32,043 nt of DNA, taken from IMG/VR virus record IMGVR_UViG_2713896773_000025; one strand, 5' to 3'. Of this stretch, positions 2,333 to 9,011 are shown one piece after another. Under the pieces are notes generated by a model. The model was not told the origin of the DNA, searched no databases, and saw only the letters and a program-made list of their open reading frames with translations. A program made the position numbers and the translations under genes. The first letter of the stretch is position 1. The number at the start of each line of letters is the position of its first letter. This DNA is from a virus (lineage: Duplodnaviria; Heunggongvirae; Uroviricota; Caudoviricetes).

Positions 2333-3226
2333 ATGTCAGCTAAAAATGAACTTGTCGAACTGATGAAAGCAAAAGGTCTTAACCAGACACAGGTCGCCCG
2401 CGCCATTGGTAAGAGCTCGGCCGTAATCAGCCAGTATCTGAATAATAAATACGACGGCGATATTGTATCGCTGGAAAACGATATTCGTAGCTTTATCGAT
2501 CGTCAGCATGAAAAAGAACGTTCGGCACGTATCAGCGTCAAATTTGTTGATACCCCAACAACGCGCAAAGCCGTTGATGTTATACGCATGGCACACGTCG
2601 AAGGTGATATCAACGTGCTCTACGGCGAAGCCGGTCTGGGCAAGACGATGATTTGCAAAGCCTACGTCTCCAAATACCGGGATGCGTTGCTGATTGAGGC
2701 AGACCCTGGCTACACCGCACGGGTAGTCCTGGAAGAGCTCTGTAACCTGCTGGGGCTCAGTACGCGCGGCAATATGCACGAACTCAGCGAGGCCTGCATC
2801 AACAAGCTGCGCGACTCCGGACGCGTGCTGATTATTGATGAAGCCGAGAACCTCCCTCTGCGTGCGCTGGAATCTATCCGCCGCATCCATGACAAAACGG
2901 GGATCGGCATCGTCCTGGTTGGTATGCCTCGCCTGATTCTGAACCTCAAGGGCAAACGCGGTGAGCTCGTACAGCTCTATAGCCGTGTCGGTTTCGCCCT
3001 CAACCTCGGGCATAGCCTGCCGGGTGCTGATATTGACGTCATCGCCAGCAGCGTTCTCCCGGATGGCCTGAATGAAGACCTGAGCAAAGCGCTGTTCAAT
3101 GCGTCAAAAGGTAACGCCCGCCGATTGTTCAAGCTGCTGCGCGGTGCGGTCCGCACCAGCGCGATGAATGATGTTCCGGTCAGCGGTCATATCGTCAACC
3201 AGATAGCTGAAATGCTGATCCATTAA
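2333..3226 (+). CDS. B: MuB-like AAA+ ATPase, transposition target DNA activator (297 aa)
   Basis: Walker A GEAGLGKT and Walker B-like LIIDEAE; N-terminal HTH-like segment; GAGGAAG RBS 7 nt upstream; position immediately after A. Confidence 0.88.
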   Translation: MSAKNELVELMKAKGLNQTQVARAIGKSSAVISQYLNNKYDGDIVSLENDIRSFIDRQHEKERSARISVKFVDTPTTRKAVDVIRMAHVEGDINVLYGEAGLGKTMICKAYVSKYRDALLIEADPGYTARVVLEELCNLLGLSTRGNMHELSEACINKLRDSGRVLIIDEAENLPLRALESIRRIHDKTGIGIVLVGMPRLILNLKGKRGELVQLYSRVGFALNLGHSLPGADIDVIASSVLPDGLNEDLSKALFNASKGNARRLFKLLRGAVRTSAMNDVPVSGHIVNQIAEMLIH

Positions 3227-5927: not shown

Positions 5928-6173
5928 ATGGCTACCAACGAAATTCTCATAGTTAACAAAATTGGGCGCGCTGATGGTGATTACGGATGCTACTGCCCTC
6001 ACTGCGGAGAGCCGATGTTTTTCAGCGATGATGAACTGGAAGACATCCGAGGCTCTCAATACCAGCATTCTCGGGTGATAAATCTCAGAACCGGTGAACG
6101 GTGTGATGGATGGCTGGAAGTATCTCCCAATGCGGGTTACTCGCGAATCTTGTTCGACCAGGGAGATGAATAG
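5928..6173 (+). CDS. small Cys-containing protein, putative zinc ribbon (81 aa)
   Basis: CYCPHCGE followed by a downstream RCDGW segment suggests a Cys-based metal-binding knuckle; starts 2 nt after upstream stop. Confidence 0.45.
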   Translation: MATNEILIVNKIGRADGDYGCYCPHCGEPMFFSDDELEDIRGSQYQHSRVINLRTGERCDGWLEVSPNAGYSRILFDQGDE

Positions 6174-6178
6174 AGAAA

Positions 6179-6438
6179 TGACCATCACCGAAATTTTGAA
6201 TACCGGACTCGCCTTCATGGGTTGGCTATTCATCATGGTCCAGGCCGGTAAGTGGTTTACATCTGTTGTCCTGAAATCGTGGGATAAACACCGCAAGGCA
6301 TCACGTCGCCAGAAGGCTGTTGATGAGTTGTACGACGCTTTCGATCTGCAGAGCATTGAGCCCGGAACAACCGTTCGTCTTGCCACAAAGGGCGCTCTGA
6401 CAATCATGATGTTTCGCTCTGAGGCGGATGCCAAATGA
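6179..6438 (+). CDS. small membrane protein (86 aa)
   Basis: Hydrophobic segment LAFMGWLFIMVQAGKWF near the N-terminus, then a basic stretch. Confidence 0.45.
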
Positions 6439-6605
6439 CAAACCGCAAAGTAAGAAGACTGCTGCGCATGCCTTTCAAATTCAGTAACCGTAAAGCGATG
6501 ACAGGCTGGCCATCAACGATACCCCGGCCTGGCAACGAGTGGTGCGACAAGAAGAAACGCAGCGCTGCACAGAACCGCTGGAAAAATCATGTGAGGTTTC
6601 TCTGA
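6435..6605 (+). CDS. small basic ORF (56 aa), below the ORF-track length cutoff
   Basis: ATG at 6435 overlaps upstream stop (ATGA) and its TGA at 6603..6605 overlaps the next ATG (TGATG); coupling pattern suggests a real gene. Translation MTNRKVRRLLRMPFKFSNRKAMTGWPSTIPRPGNEWCDKKKRSAAQNRWKNHVRFL. Confidence 0.3.
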   Translation: MTNRKVRRLLRMPFKFSNRKAMTGWPSTIPRPGNEWCDKKKRSAAQNRWKNHVRFL

Positions 6606-6979
6606 TGAATATAAATAAACATTCTGAGCGTAAGCCAGTGGTTTTCATTGCCGGTCCAATGACCGGGTATCACAACTTTAACCGCGATGAATTCAACGCT
6701 GAGGCTCGCATCCTGGAAGAGCGCGGCTTCACCGTTCTCAACCCGGCCATTCTTCCAGACGGCCTGCAGCATGAGCAGTACCTGCAAATTACATTGTCCA
6801 TGCTTGAGCAGGCTGATGCGGTATTCCTGCTGAACGGGTGGGAAAAGAGCACCGGCGCTACCAGGGAGTTTGATCGCGCCTGTGAGCTAGGGCTGCTGTT
6901 CCTTTACCAGGACTGGGAAAGCGTGTCGATTGCGATCCACCGTAAGCGTCACCCATTAACGGAGGTGAGTTATGCATAG
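6605..6979 (+). CDS. DUF4406 / nucleoside 2-deoxyribosyltransferase-like protein (124 aa)
   Basis: VVFIAGPMTG near the N-terminus and overall pattern recalled from the DUF4406 family; ATG at 6605 chosen over the GTG at 6539 because of stop-start coupling. Confidence 0.55.
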   Translation: MNINKHSERKPVVFIAGPMTGYHNFNRDEFNAEARILEERGFTVLNPAILPDGLQHEQYLQITLSMLEQADAVFLLNGWEKSTGATREFDRACELGLLFLYQDWESVSIAIHRKRHPLTEVSYA

Positions 6980-7187
6980 CGTAACGGGCTGCCAGTTCCA
7001 GGATAACGGTAACCGCCGAATCTGGTTCTTCCGCGATAACAGCCAGGTTGTCGAGTTGCTGGCGGTGCCACTTAAGCTGCGGTTCAACTATTACGACGCC
7101 AGTAACCGTAAGGTACGCAATAAGGGGACTCAGGCTGATATGAAGAAGGCGATTGAATCTTTCAAGAAACTTCGGGGGATAAAGTGA
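6972..7187 (+). CDS. hypothetical small protein (71 aa)
   Basis: Overlaps upstream gene by 8 nt; no family recognised. Confidence 0.4.
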   Translation: MHSVTGCQFQDNGNRRIWFFRDNSQVVELLAVPLKLRFNYYDASNRKVRNKGTQADMKKAIESFKKLRGIK

Positions 7188-7580: not shown

Positions 7581-7622
7581 GTCATTACAGCAGGCACTTC
7601 ATAAAGTGCCTGCTGTAATGAC
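7581..7622. repeat. perfect 19-bp inverted repeat with 4-nt loop
   Basis: GTCATTACAGCAGGCACTT cata AAGTGCCTGCTGTAATGAC read directly from sequence; lies between the last early accessory ORF and the gemA RBS. Confidence 0.85.
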
Positions 7623-7641
7623 AACCAACAGGAGAAATATT

Positions 7642-8118
7642 ATGTCCACGCCAGCAAAACGAGGCCTTATAGGTGCAATTAAAGCCGGTCAGGCATATCT
7701 GGGGTGGGATGAGGTAACCTACCGTAGTGTTCTGTCTCGCTTATGCAACGGTAAAACATCATCCACTAAATGCACCCTCGACGAGCTGCAGGCTGTCAGG
7801 GAATATATGCATGACAAGGGTTTTCCTCGCTACTCAGCAAAACACGGTCGACGCCCAAAGGTTGCCAATACGCGCGAGTCAATTCTTTCTAAAATTAACG
7901 CATTACTTGCAGATGCAAAACGTCCGTGGAATTATGCCGAGAAAATGTGCGATCATATGTTTCACGTCAAATACATCGAGTGGTTGACGACTGAACAGTT
8001 AACCAAACTCATGCAGGCTCTCAGCATTGATGCGAGTCGGCGAAAAAAGCGGGAGCGTAATAATGAATCTGGAACAGGTAACGGAGCTGCTGCCATCAGC
8101 AGTGATTCAAATAGCTGA
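7642..8118 (+). CDS. gemA: GemA-like regulatory protein (158 aa)
   Basis: ATG at 7642 with AGGAG RBS; KRGLIGAIKAGQAYLGWDE...YRSVL pattern recalled from the Mu GemA/DUF1018 family; sits immediately before the Mor-like gene. Confidence 0.7.
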   Translation: MSTPAKRGLIGAIKAGQAYLGWDEVTYRSVLSRLCNGKTSSTKCTLDELQAVREYMHDKGFPRYSAKHGRRPKVANTRESILSKINALLADAKRPWNYAEKMCDHMFHVKYIEWLTTEQLTKLMQALSIDASRRKKRERNNESGTGNGAAAISSDSNS

Positions 8119-8497
8119 CCTGATAGGCTTCCCGGCGACCGAGCAGCTTCTTTCTGCTTTTGGTGGCACCACGTTCCCGATAGGTAAAGGCCTCCGCGCT
8201 ATGGGGGCCAGCCGCGCAGCCCTCCTGCGCAATACTATCGGCGATGATAAAACCCAATTACTCATCAAGAATTTCGGCGGAGAAGTTCTCTATTTACCGC
8301 GCTGTGATCGTGCCCTTCGTGAATTACGCAACCGCCGCTTTCTCGCCGAGTTCGCCGAAGTGCGTGAACAAGGTTCATCCTCTCTTATGGCCATGACCTT
8401 TCTTTGCCCTAAGTATGGATTCAGCGATCGTTTTGGATGGCAGTTACTAAGCCAGCACAGACAAAACACATCAATCAATCAACAAGAACTTTTTTAA
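8063..8497 (+). CDS. mor: Mor/C-family transcriptional activator (144 aa)
   Basis: GGEVLYLPR...LRELRNRRFLAEF...YGFSDR resembles the Mor/C core GG.VYIPR...L..DL.I...F.G.N..EL...YG; overlaps the gemA 3' end. Confidence 0.75.
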   Translation: MNLEQVTELLPSAVIQIADLIGFPATEQLLSAFGGTTFPIGKGLRAMGASRAALLRNTIGDDKTQLLIKNFGGEVLYLPRCDRALRELRNRRFLAEFAEVREQGSSSLMAMTFLCPKYGFSDRFGWQLLSQHRQNTSINQQELF

Positions 8498-8510: not shown

Positions 8511-9011
8511 ATGGAGTTTTTAATTGCTTTAATTATATTCGGTGCTTCTGTTGCTGTTTACAAAGATGCTATCACCAATAACATTGCAAGACCTGCCCGT
8601 TGGGGGATTGGTTCAGCATTCATATTCTTCATTGTCATTCCATTGTATCTATTTAAAAGAAAAAAATTAATCGGAAGTGCATTATCAGACTCGGATGATG
8701 CCAGTAGTGTCCAGGGCGGAAAAAATGTTAGCCCCTTATCAGTTTATGTCCTGATGTTCATTTTAGCATTTATTGCCCCAGTGATTAATTTTTACAAAGG
8801 TGATTTACCTGGCTGTGATTCATCCGATGTCCATTCTGTTCTTACAGAGTTGCTGAATGGAGAAAAATTCTCTGAGCCCGCGCAAATGAGTTATGACCGG
8901 GTTAATGCAGTGAGACACTGTAACTTGACTGTTTCTGATAGAGTGTTTTCATATACAGTGAAATGGTACAGTGAAGAGAAAGATCAGTTTGTTGTACAGT
9001 TTGACAACTAA
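8511..9011 (+). CDS. AT-rich membrane protein, candidate moron (166 aa)
   Basis: Three hydrophobic helices plus a roughly 70-aa C-terminal soluble domain; gene is markedly more AT-rich than its neighbours. Confidence 0.6.
   Translation: MEFLIALIIFGASVAVYKDAITNNIARPARWGIGSAFIFFIVIPLYLFKRKKLIGSALSDSDDASSVQGGKNVSPLSVYVLMFILAFIAPVINFYKGDLPGCDSSDVHSVLTELLNGEKFSEPAQMSYDRVNAVRHCNLTVSDRVFSYTVKWYSEEKDQFVVQFDN

What the first reader, a model, noticed from the sequence alone, without database searches (positions are those of the whole stretch)
6605..6979. Nucleoside 2-deoxyribosyltransferase-like (DUF4406-type) gene among the early accessory genes
The product has the Rossmann-like VVFIAGPMTG start and overall pattern of the deoxyribosyltransferase-like superfamily, whose characterised members act on nucleosides or nucleotides. 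In a phage early operon such an enzyme could remodel nucleotide pools or act on nucleotide-based defence signals. The function is unknown and the family call is from memory.
Basis: inference. Interest (0 to 1): 0.4.

Follow-up and report, generated by a model that had tools for sequence, protein, structure and literature searches.

The report
DUF4406 deoxyribosyltransferase-fold gene in Mu-like prophage
The gene is real and is a DUF4406 protein, a small and still uncharacterised branch of the enzyme fold that cuts bases off nucleotides, sitting among the early accessory genes of a Mu-like prophage; it is a common, already catalogued phage gene whose function is still unknown.

Summary
Observation and family call are confirmed. 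Window 6605-6979 (+) encodes a 124-aa protein. It matches Pfam DUF4406 (E=2e-27) and phrog_355 (E=3.8e-35). It is under purifying selection (dN/dS 0.03-0.21). It lies in the variable early region of a Mu-like prophage, between MuA/MuB and GemA/Mor.

An AlphaFold model (pLDDT 87) matches nucleoside deoxyribosyltransferases, DNPH1 and MilB, but as a minimal four-strand version. By alignment:
- Glu88 takes the place of the nucleophile (99% conserved).
- Ser82 takes the place of the 5'-phosphate ligand of DNPH1/MilB; true transferases have Asp there.
- The triad Tyr is Phe14, as in ribo-specific MilB.
- The triad Asp is Thr63.

Most likely it is a nucleotide (5'-phosphate) N-glycosidase, not a nucleoside transferase. 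This is inferred, not shown.

New context: its 71-aa downstream neighbour (phrog_9400) lies next to either DUF4406 or a T5-Dmp-like dNMP phosphatase in Mu-like phages, never both (23/24/19/0 of 66 loci). This hints at analogous dNMP-depleting roles.

No DUF4406 member has a solved structure or a published activity. The exact protein is already in public databases. It is an ordinary but unresolved gene, of modest interest.

The parts
6605..6979 (+). DUF4406 gene (124 aa, stop codon included)
   Evidence: ORF. Pfam PF14359 E=2e-27. phrog_355 E=3.8e-35. AF2 model pLDDT 87 with an NDT/DNPH1/MilB-like fold. dN/dS 0.03-0.21.
6593..6596 (+). GAGG Shine-Dalgarno, 8 nt upstream of ATG 6605; the ATG overlaps the upstream TGA stop (6603-6605)
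   Evidence: Read directly from the sequence.
6638..6667 (+). Codons for residues 12-21, VVFIAGPMTG: strand beta1 plus the Gly-rich loop. Phe14 occupies the triad-Tyr position; G17/P18/M19/T20/G21 are 92-100% conserved (T20 is 75% Thr plus 19% Ser)
   Evidence: Alignments to T. brucei NDT and human DNPH1; conservation over 225 homologues.
6791..6793 (+). Codon for Thr63, the position aligned with the triad Asp/Asn of NDT/DNPH1
   Evidence: Helix-register alignment. Family usage is C 49%, T 28%, D 10%, and the position covaries with residue 14 (Y/C 96 sequences, F/T 56). The equivalence is inferred, not superposed.
6839..6868 (+). Codons for residues 79-88, WEKSTGATRE: Ser82 (putative 5'-phosphate ligand) and Glu88 (putative nucleophile)
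   Evidence: S82 aligns to DNPH1 Ser98 and E88 to Glu104. E88 aligns to the TbNDT catalytic Glu. S82, G84 and E88 are 99-100% conserved.
6972..7187 (+). 71-aa ORF (phrog_9400), overlapping the DUF4406 stop by 8 nt; a conserved neighbour and possible partner
   Evidence: phrog_9400 E=2.2e-19. It is adjacent to DUF4406 in all 14 DUF4406-bearing Mu-like loci examined. It is adjacent to a Dmp-like phosphatase in other Mu-like phages.
6435..6605 (+). 56-aa basic ORF directly upstream, its stop overlapping the DUF4406 start; coding status uncertain
   Evidence: ORF list. Called as a gene in only one of three identical-context assemblies. Only a weak PHROG hit covering 17 residues.

Best explanation
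The gene encodes a stand-alone DUF4406 protein, a minimal four-strand version of the nucleoside-deoxyribosyltransferase/DNPH1/MilB fold. It is carried as accessory cargo in the variable early region of a Mu-like prophage of Enterobacteriaceae and is expressed within the early operon. The most likely mechanism is inferred by homology. It would act as an N-glycosidase on a 5'-phosphorylated nucleotide. Ser82 and the GPMTG loop would hold the phosphate. Met19 and Tyr59 would sandwich the base. Glu88 would attack C1' to form a covalent (deoxy)ribosyl-5-phosphate-enzyme intermediate, which water then resolves. The products would be free base plus (deoxy)ribose 5-phosphate. Phe14 in place of the triad Tyr, as in CMP-specific MilB, predicts that the Mu-like clade tolerates or prefers a 2'-OH, whereas the Tyr-bearing majority of the family should prefer 2'-deoxy substrates. 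The likely biological role is early depletion or sanitising of (d)NMPs, analogous to the T5-Dmp-type dNMP phosphatase that occupies the neighbouring slot in other Mu-like phages. What is shown: gene, family, fold, conservation and genomic context. What is inferred: substrate class, chemistry and role.
Against: No DUF4406 member has a published activity or a solved structure. The general-acid Asp/Asn of the triad is missing (Thr63; Cys or Thr in 77% of the family), and in this clade the Tyr is missing too. The fold also lacks strand beta5 and the C-terminal segment that completes the neighbouring active site in NDT and DNPH1. Catalysis may therefore differ or be weak. Phe14 argues for ribo substrates, which fits poorly with a strict dNMP-phosphatase analogy. 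DUF4406 usually lies upstream of phrog_9400 and Dmp downstream, so they do not share exactly the same slot. The mutual exclusivity is not corrected for phylogeny. No nucleotide-related domain fusion was found in 57 longer homologues whose domains were scanned, nor in the precomputed Pfam listings of 120 more homologues. Lambdoid contexts show no conserved nucleotide-enzyme partner.
Confidence: 0.5

Rival explanations
1. It is a genuine nucleoside 2'-deoxyribosyltransferase, as many phage records and phrog_355 name it. It would swap bases between free deoxynucleosides to reshape the nucleoside pool.
For: Same fold and the same nucleophile position. The invariant Pro47 after strand beta2 recalls the water-excluding Pro of transferases (PMC12884076; conservation). 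Some phage NDTs of family PF05014 are active transferases (bioRxiv 10.1101/2025.10.22.683976).
Against: PF05014 and PF15891 score below their curated cut-offs (14.3 vs 28.8 bits; 19.4 vs 30 bits). The Asp that binds the 5'-OH in NDTs is an invariant Ser here. The triad Asp/Asn and, in this clade, the Tyr are absent. The C-terminal residues supplied by the partner subunit are absent. The record names are unreliable: the same single-domain protein is also labelled dCMP deaminase, MazG or hydrolase.
Confidence: 0.08
2. It is an anti-defence protein aimed at NAD-derived or other nucleotide immune signals. It would either cleave a ribosyl-base bond in them (TIR- or retron-NDT-like NADase chemistry) or bind them as a sponge.
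Against: The best structural matches are NDT, DNPH1 and MilB, not TIR. Ser82 matches a 5'-monophosphate ligand. There is no PADLOC hit and no literature support. The gene is common in replication and nucleotide modules of lytic actinophages, which suits metabolism better than a host-specific counter-defence.
Confidence: 0.12
3. It is a non-catalytic nucleotide-binding or regulatory protein that works with the 71-aa phrog_9400 protein, for example as a two-gene module sensing or titrating a nucleotide or a host factor.
For: There is tight, order-flexible linkage with phrog_9400 in all Mu-like loci examined. Two of the three canonical triad residues are missing. The fold is minimal.
Against: Conservation of 99% at Glu88, Ser82 and Gly84 across a very large and diverse family (24,116 cluster representatives) is typical of a catalytic centre. 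Most family members (lambdoid, N15-like and actinophage) lack phrog_9400 (one search finds it in only 2 phage records).
Confidence: 0.1

Closest known systems
DNPH1 / Rcl (2'-deoxynucleoside 5'-phosphate N-hydrolase)
   Same: Same alpha/beta fold (Foldseek E 3e-4). Glu nucleophile at the start of the helix after beta3 (E88 to E104). Ser six residues before it that binds the 5'-phosphate (S82 to S98). Gly-rich loop after beta1.
   Different: The general-acid Asp80 is replaced by Thr63 and Tyr24 by Phe14. There is no beta5 and no helical extension supplying Ser128' to the partner site. The protein is 124 aa against 174 aa. Sequence similarity is not significant on its own.
MilB / BcmB / BlsM CMP N-glycosidases
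   Different: MilB uses Arg23 for the phosphate; the aligned residue here is Thr20. MilB enzymes belong to antibiotic-biosynthesis clusters, not phages, and are 150-160 aa with the full five-strand fold.
Nucleoside 2'-deoxyribosyltransferases (PF05014; L. leichmannii, T. brucei, C. thermalis)
   Same: Top Foldseek hits (2a0k, 8pq*) and the only significant PDB profile hit (2a0k, E=3.5e-4). Same nucleophile position and the same YIAGP-type first strand.
   Different: Below the Pfam threshold. Asp for the 5'-OH is replaced by Ser. The triad Asp/Asn is absent. The C-terminal partner-site residues are absent.
DmtZ of Z-genome phages Ghobes and Wayne (dAMP N-glycosidase / phosphodeoxyribosyl transferase; PMC12884076)
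   Same: A phage-encoded NDT-fold enzyme acting on a dNMP, coupled to a dNTP pyrophosphohydrolase. It shows that this chemistry is used by phages.
   Different: It is a separate family with no Pfam model. The Ghobes 161-aa protein, which is probably DmtZ, matches the model only weakly (E=3.9e-4, 16% identity). It keeps the Tyr6/Asn77/Glu103 triad and is tied to PurZ0/DutZ, which are absent here.
T5 Dmp / YfdR-type HD dNMP phosphatase (phrog_318)
   Same: It occupies the slot beside the same conserved 71-aa gene in other Mu-like phages and is never present together with DUF4406. It is an early gene that destroys dNMPs and is an anti-Kongming factor.
   Different: The fold (HD domain) and the chemistry (phosphate removal) are unrelated. 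It sits downstream of phrog_9400, whereas DUF4406 usually sits upstream.
DUF1937 (PDB 1t1j, structural-genomics protein)
   Different: Only 15% identity, and its function is also unknown, so it gives no mechanistic information.

Membership tests
Pfam DUF4406 (PF14359) | HMM score above the curated gathering threshold (22 bits) over the whole domain | tested here: met
   95.8 bits, E=2e-27, profile positions 2-89 of 91.
Pfam DUF4406 (PF14359) | Family signature [YF]I[AS]GPM[TS]G ... LNPA.LP.GL ... Y[ML].I ... L.GW..S.GA..E | tested here: met
   All motif residues are present. Conservation was measured over 225 homologues.
NDT/DNPH1 superfamily (N-(deoxy)ribosyltransferase-like fold) | Flavodoxin-like parallel beta-sheet fold matching solved members | tested here: met
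NDT/DNPH1 superfamily (N-(deoxy)ribosyltransferase-like fold) | Catalytic Glu nucleophile at the N-terminus of the helix after beta3 | tested here: met
   E88 aligns with the TbNDT catalytic Glu and DNPH1 E104 and is 99% conserved. Its role as a nucleophile was not tested.
NDT/DNPH1 superfamily (N-(deoxy)ribosyltransferase-like fold) | Triad Tyr on beta1, hydrogen-bonded to the Glu | tested here: not met
   Phe14 here and in all 10 Mu-like homologues. Tyr is found in 62% of the family. MilB likewise has Phe.
NDT/DNPH1 superfamily (N-(deoxy)ribosyltransferase-like fold) | Triad Asp/Asn general acid in the helix before beta3 | tested here: not met
   The aligned residue is Thr63. Family usage is Cys 49%, Thr 28%, Asp 10%. 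The equivalence comes from alignment only; there was no superposition.
Nucleoside 2'-deoxyribosyltransferase proper (PF05014, EC 2.4.2.6) | Pfam score above 28.8 bits | tested here: not met
   14.3 bits, E=0.047.
Nucleoside 2'-deoxyribosyltransferase proper (PF05014, EC 2.4.2.6) | Asp/Asn that binds the free 5'-OH of the nucleoside, six residues before the Glu | tested here: not met
   Ser82, 99% conserved. The rule is taken from PMC12884076.
Nucleoside 2'-deoxyribosyltransferase proper (PF05014, EC 2.4.2.6) | Base-exchange activity on deoxynucleosides | not testable with these tools
   Needs an enzyme assay.
DNPH1/MilB-type nucleotide N-glycosidases | Ser phosphate ligand six residues before the nucleophile | tested here: met
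   S82 aligns to DNPH1 S98 / MilB S97.
DNPH1/MilB-type nucleotide N-glycosidases | Second phosphate ligand (Ser128' from the partner subunit, or Arg23 of MilB) | tested here: inconclusive
   No helical extension is present. The residue aligned to Arg30/Arg23 is Thr20. A conserved Asn26-Arg27 pair (95% and 84%) could substitute, but its position could not be checked without coordinates.
DNPH1/MilB-type nucleotide N-glycosidases | Hydrolysis of (d)NMP to base plus (deoxy)ribose 5-phosphate | not testable with these tools
   Needs an enzyme assay.
Known anti-phage defence or anti-defence families | Match to a PADLOC model or to a described anti-defence protein | tested here: not met
   No PADLOC hit for this protein or for four of its neighbours. 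No paper links DUF4406 to defence.

The most novel reading that the evidence does not exclude
DUF4406 proteins would be a very widespread class of phage (d)NMP N-glycosidases that do the same job as T5-Dmp-type dNMP phosphatases. Expressed early, they would destroy nucleoside monophosphates released from host nucleic acids. This would starve nucleotide-derived immune signalling (for example the dAMP-to-dITP route of Kongming) or block salvage of unwanted nucleotides. The Phe/Thr clade of Mu-like phages would be tuned to ribo substrates and the Tyr/Cys clade to deoxy substrates.
Probability: 0.15. Interest if true: 0.65.

Novelty: new member of a known kind. Interest (0 to 1): 0.3.

Why it matters
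DUF4406 is large: 24,116 cluster representatives at 50% identity, and hits in 451 of 50,697 phage records. It recurs in the early regions of Mu-like, lambdoid, N15-like, P1/D6-like and actinobacterial phages, yet it has no assigned activity. The residue pattern gives a sharp, cheap hypothesis to test: an N-glycosidase acting on 5'-phosphorylated nucleotides, with a Phe/Tyr switch for ribo versus deoxy substrates. The alternation with a Dmp-type dNMP phosphatase beside the same small gene suggests that early destruction of nucleoside monophosphates is a selected trait in transposable phages. That in turn connects to the recently described dAMP-dependent Kongming immunity. If the enzyme proves inactive or ordinary, the gene is simply another accessory nucleotide-metabolism gene.

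Tried and rejected
- **Solved structures.** A sequence search of the PDB with the protein found nothing relevant. The family profile found only T. brucei NDT at E=3.5e-4. No DUF4406 structure exists to read a ligand from.
- **Literature.** DUF4406 appears in three incidental genome papers, and PF14359 in none. No paper was found that links this family to phage defence, and searches for Mu-like prophages with deoxyribosyltransferases gave nothing.
- **Domain fusions.** I scanned 57 longer homologues, and a further 120 homologues carry precomputed Pfam listings. These showed only DUF4406 plus sub-threshold hits to the related families DUF1937, DUF7768 and NDT, with one DUF551, one ClpX zinc finger and one leucine-zipper (HALZ) hit. 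Phage features labelled 'deoxycytidylate deaminase' or 'MazG-like' over the hits turned out to be mis-named single-domain DUF4406 genes, not fusions.
- **Conserved partners in lambdoid prophages.** Clustering the neighbours in 80 IMG/VR loci gave only replication and nin-region genes by inspection, and no nucleotide enzyme.
- **PADLOC.** No hit.
- **HD hydrolase of the Klebsiella phage.** It has no Pfam hit, but it does match phrog_318 and PDB 2gz4.
- **Model coordinates.** They are not exposed. I could not superpose the model on DNPH1 or measure distances, so residue equivalences are alignment-based.
- **Alternative start.** GTG 6539 was rejected on homologue lengths.
- **Opposite strand.** The ORFs at 6587-6787 and 6670-6852 have no support.
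- **Regulatory signals.** No internal promoter or terminator near the gene rises above shuffled expectation.

Full report
**1.

Window 6605-6979 (+) is an ORF of 124 codons plus a TAG stop.
- A GAGG Shine-Dalgarno sequence lies 8 nt upstream of the ATG.
- The ATG shares its A with the TGA stop of a 56-aa upstream ORF.
- The next ORF starts 8 nt before this gene's stop. The gene is therefore embedded in a tightly packed operon.
- The longer GTG-6539 reading is not supported, because close homologues are 121-124 aa.
- The gene is under purifying selection: dN/dS is 0.03-0.21 against homologues of 98-56% identity.
- Its GC content matches the neighbouring genes.

**2. The family call is correct**

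Pfam DUF4406 (PF14359) matches at 95.8 bits against a cut-off of 22, E=2e-27. The canonical deoxyribosyltransferase models PF05014 and PF15891 give only sub-threshold hits. PHROGs gives phrog_355, which is named 'nucleoside 2-deoxyribosyltransferase', at E=3.8e-35. NCBIfam has no model for it.

The protein is 99% identical to an NCBI cluster already named 'DUF4406 domain-containing protein [Escherichia coli]'. The exact sequence is on record in 618 blocks of public assemblies.

**3. Setting**

The window is a Mu-like prophage. It carries:
- MuA (230-2287) and MuB (2333-3226);
- DUF3164, DUF2786/DUF7168 and DUF4752 genes;
- then the DUF4406 gene and three small ORFs;
- GemA and Mor;
- a GH19 endolysin and Mu-type head genes.

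The gene thus lies in the variable, 'semi-essential' early segment between the transposition genes and gemA/mor. No promoter-like or terminator-like site around it exceeds shuffled expectation.

**4. Fold**

An AlphaFold2 model built on 43 homologues has mean pLDDT 87 and pTM 0.81. Its secondary-structure order is beta1-alpha-beta2-alpha-beta3-alpha-beta4-alpha.
- Foldseek against the PDB returns nucleoside 2'-deoxyribosyltransferases (T. brucei 2a0k, C. thermalis, L. mexicana), human DNPH1 and MilB as the top hits, all with probability 1.0.
- The model has four strands, not the five of NDT and DNPH1. Many family members are only 93-98 aa and end right after beta4. DUF4406 is therefore a minimal version of the fold and lacks the C-terminal elements that complete the partner subunit's active site in NDT and DNPH1.
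- No DUF4406 protein has a solved structure.

**5. Catalytic residues**

The equivalences below rest on the HMMER profile alignment to T. brucei NDT, on an hhalign alignment to human DNPH1, and on the matching order of secondary-structure elements.

| Residue here | Aligned position | Conservation in 225 homologues |
|---|---|---|
| Glu88 | catalytic nucleophile (DNPH1 E104) | 99% |
| Ser82 | DNPH1 Ser98 / MilB Ser97, phosphate ligand | 99% |
| Phe14 | triad Tyr (DNPH1 Y24) | Tyr 62%, Phe 37% |
| Thr63 | triad Asp/Asn (DNPH1 D80) | Cys 49%, Thr 28%, Asp 10% |
| Met19, Tyr59 | DNPH1 I29 and I76, which sandwich the base | 96% and 97% |

- Ser98 and Ser97 coordinate the 5'-phosphate (PMC10603095). 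Transferases that act on nucleosides have Asp/Asn there to hold the free 5'-OH (PMC12884076).
- All 10 Mu-like homologues have Phe at position 14. MilB has Phe17 at this position to accommodate ribose, and its F17Y mutant switches preference to deoxyribose. The same Tyr-versus-Phe logic is described for TIR domains (PMC11204291).
- Positions 14 and 63 covary: Tyr/Cys in 96 sequences and Phe/Thr in 56. This supports the idea that they belong to one functional site.
- Gly84 is invariant, and the GPMTG loop is 92-100% conserved apart from Thr20, which is 75% Thr and 19% Ser.

In short, the nucleophile and a phosphate-type pocket are retained, but the other two triad residues are non-canonical.

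**6. What it most likely does**

Putting these together, the best-supported reading is a nucleotide (5'-phosphate) N-glycosidase of the DNPH1/MilB type rather than a nucleoside transferase. It would use a covalent Glu88 intermediate. In the Mu-like clade, Phe14 predicts tolerance of, or preference for, ribonucleotides. This is inference by homology; nothing here shows activity.

The missing general acid and the missing partner-site elements are real reasons for caution. Candidate substitutes are Tyr59, Glu80 (63% Glu, 13% Gln) and the Asn26-Arg27 pair, but I could not place them in space.

**7. Distribution and context elsewhere**

A profile search of 1.84 billion cluster representatives finds 24,116 members at E<=1e-3. 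tblastn finds the domain in 451 of 50,697 phage records. These include N15 gp57, D6, Rac-SA53, many Vibrio phages, and Arthrobacter, Gordonia and Mycobacterium phages.
- Record names vary widely for the same ~120-aa single-domain protein: deoxyribosyltransferase, hydrolase, CMP N-glycosidase, dCMP deaminase, MazG. They are not evidence of function.
- In the contexts sampled, the gene always sits in early, replication, recombination or nucleotide modules.
- In a Vibrio phage it lies between a Dam methylase and an NTP pyrophosphohydrolase.
- In mycobacteriophage Optimus it is two genes from a MazG-like gene.
- In Gordonia phage Chop it is next to a methyltransferase.
- In Tsukamurella phage TIN4 it is next to DNA polymerase subunits, with a pyrophosphatase four genes downstream.
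- In a Vibrio lambdoid prophage, and in about 70 enterobacterial lambdoid contigs, it lies in the nin-like region with no conserved nucleotide partner.
- Domain fusions are rare and uninformative among the 57 longer homologues I scanned; the precomputed Pfam listings of 120 more homologues show DUF4406 (with DUF1937 in a few) only.
- BFVD does list two viral proteins with a structurally similar domain (28-31% identity to this protein) that UniProt names 'dATP/dGTP diphosphohydrolase N-terminal domain-containing'. I could not inspect their sequences.

**8. A new contextual lead**

The 71-aa ORF that overlaps the gene's stop (6972-7187) belongs to phrog_9400. It is adjacent to DUF4406 in all 14 DUF4406-bearing Mu-like loci I examined. 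It lies downstream in 12 and upstream in 2, and its own identity falls as low as 33%.

In two Mu-like phages that lack DUF4406, Klebsiella ST405-OXA48phi1.1 and Pseudomonas VW-6B, the phrog_9400 gene is followed, with a 4-nt overlap, by a different enzyme gene. That gene matches phrog_318, 'deoxyribonucleoside 5' monophosphate phosphatase', at E=4e-86 and 4e-96. This is the T5 Dmp / YfdR type of HD-domain enzyme.

Among 66 IMG/VR loci encoding a phrog_9400 homologue:

| Neighbour of phrog_9400 | Loci | Unique phrog_9400 sequences |
|---|---|---|
| DUF4406 | 23 | 17 |
| Dmp-like gene | 24 | 17 |
| Neither | 19 | 13 |
| Both | 0 | 0 |

- A naive Fisher test gives p=1.3e-6.
- In the 'neither' loci, phrog_9400 is most often followed directly by the homologue of the window's 76-aa ORF; the rest carry other small ORFs.
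- The window and the 14 DUF4406-bearing Mu-like loci contain no Dmp homologue.
- Caveats: the test ignores shared ancestry, and the two enzymes usually sit on opposite sides of phrog_9400.
- Even so, two unrelated enzymes, one known and one predicted to destroy (d)NMPs, alternate beside the same small gene. This supports a (d)NMP-directed role.
- It also ties in with the finding that T5 Dmp, an early dNMP phosphatase, defeats the Kongming system by depleting dAMP (bioRxiv 10.1101/2024.12.20.629578).
- The nearest characterised phage enzyme of this fold is DmtZ, a dAMP N-glycosidase and phosphodeoxyribosyl transferase of Z-genome phages (PMC12884076). It is a separate family. A 161-aa Ghobes protein that is probably DmtZ matches the model only weakly (E=3.9e-4, 16% identity).

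**9. Rivals**

- A true nucleoside transferase is unlikely. The Pfam hit is sub-threshold, Ser replaces the 5'-OH-binding Asp, and the partner-site residues are missing.
- An anti-defence role against NAD-derived or cyclic signals is not excluded. Points in favour are the early accessory position, Phe as in NADase TIR domains, and remote TIR/SLOG similarity. It has no direct support: there is no PADLOC hit and no paper held links this family to defence. The gene is also common in replication modules of lytic actinophages.
- A non-catalytic binder working with the 71-aa protein is possible, but it is hard to reconcile with 99% conservation of Glu88, Ser82 and Gly84. In addition, phrog_9400 is absent from most phages that carry DUF4406.

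**10. Verdict**

The finding is correct as stated. The gene is a catalogued, widespread, uncharacterised family member and not a new kind of element. Its interest lies in an open functional question, which the residue pattern and the DUF4406/Dmp alternation make directly testable.

Noticed in passing
window 7581-7622: A perfect 19-bp-stem hairpin (loop CATA) lies in the gap between the 76-aa ORF (ends 7574) and gemA. RNA MFE is -35.7 kcal/mol, z=-8.5. No T-tract follows on the + strand. Relatives L006 and L001 keep the hairpin with 2-3 mismatches in the stem.
   Followed up: partly
window 7606-8118: The listed GemA ORF starts at GTG 7606, inside the hairpin. Homologues are 158 aa, and an AGGAG at 7630-7634 precedes ATG 7642, so the real start is probably 7642. 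The GemA and Mor ORFs overlap by about 56-90 nt, as in related prophages.
   Followed up: partly
window 8511-9011: A 166-aa ORF with a hydrophobic N-terminus has GC 0.36-0.39, against about 0.50 around it. It looks like a moron-type insertion between mor and the GH19 endolysin. It has no PHROG hit; Pfam was not run on it.
   Followed up: partly
window 6972-7187; L099 3647-3871; L100 2486-2710: The 71-74-aa phrog_9400 protein (invariant V4, G13, R16, P33, M57, A60, K65) is a conserved small gene of Mu-like early regions. It is always translationally coupled to whichever cargo enzyme is present (DUF4406 or a Dmp-like phosphatase). Its own function is unknown.
   Followed up: partly
window 6094-6438 (DUF4752): DUF4752 homologues also turn up within 0-2 kb of DUF4406 in nine lambdoid IMG/VR loci (L061, L063, L065, L072, L073, L078, L082, L085, L089). 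The two accessory genes therefore co-travel outside Mu-like phages.
   Followed up: no
L002 2486-2857; L003 2480-2860; L004 2654-2782: Public phage records label single-domain DUF4406 genes as 'deoxycytidylate deaminase' (Arthrobacter phage PhluffyCoco gp54) or 'MazG-like pyrophosphatase' (Mycobacterium phage Optimus gp161, Pseudomonas phage Orisa02). These appear to be annotation errors.
   Followed up: partly
L008-L012, about 7850-8300 (- strand): Vibrio anguillarum lambdoid prophages that carry DUF4406 also encode an AcrIF11-like ADP-ribosyltransferase (PF26151). It lies about 1.5 kb downstream on the opposite strand.
   Followed up: no
BFVD entries A0A6J5S4N9 (462 aa) and A0A6J5LQ71 (216 aa): Two viral proteins with a domain structurally similar to this protein (28-31% identity) are named by UniProt as containing a dATP/dGTP diphosphohydrolase N-terminal domain. 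If they are real fusions, they would be Rosetta-stone evidence for a dNTP to dNMP to base pathway. Their sequences could not be retrieved here.
   Followed up: no
proteins P0231-P0277: A 198-214-aa DUF4406 variant with a C-terminal extension of unknown type is common on roughly 85-95-kb E. coli and Salmonella contigs. These are probably P1/D6/SSU5-like plasmid prophages. One source names the protein 'gp58'.
   Followed up: no
L100 2063-2485: In Pseudomonas Mu-like phage VW-6B, the gene just upstream of phrog_9400 matches phrog_4790, 'host RecBCD nuclease inhibitor' (E=2e-56). Host-takeover functions therefore cluster around this slot.
   Followed up: no
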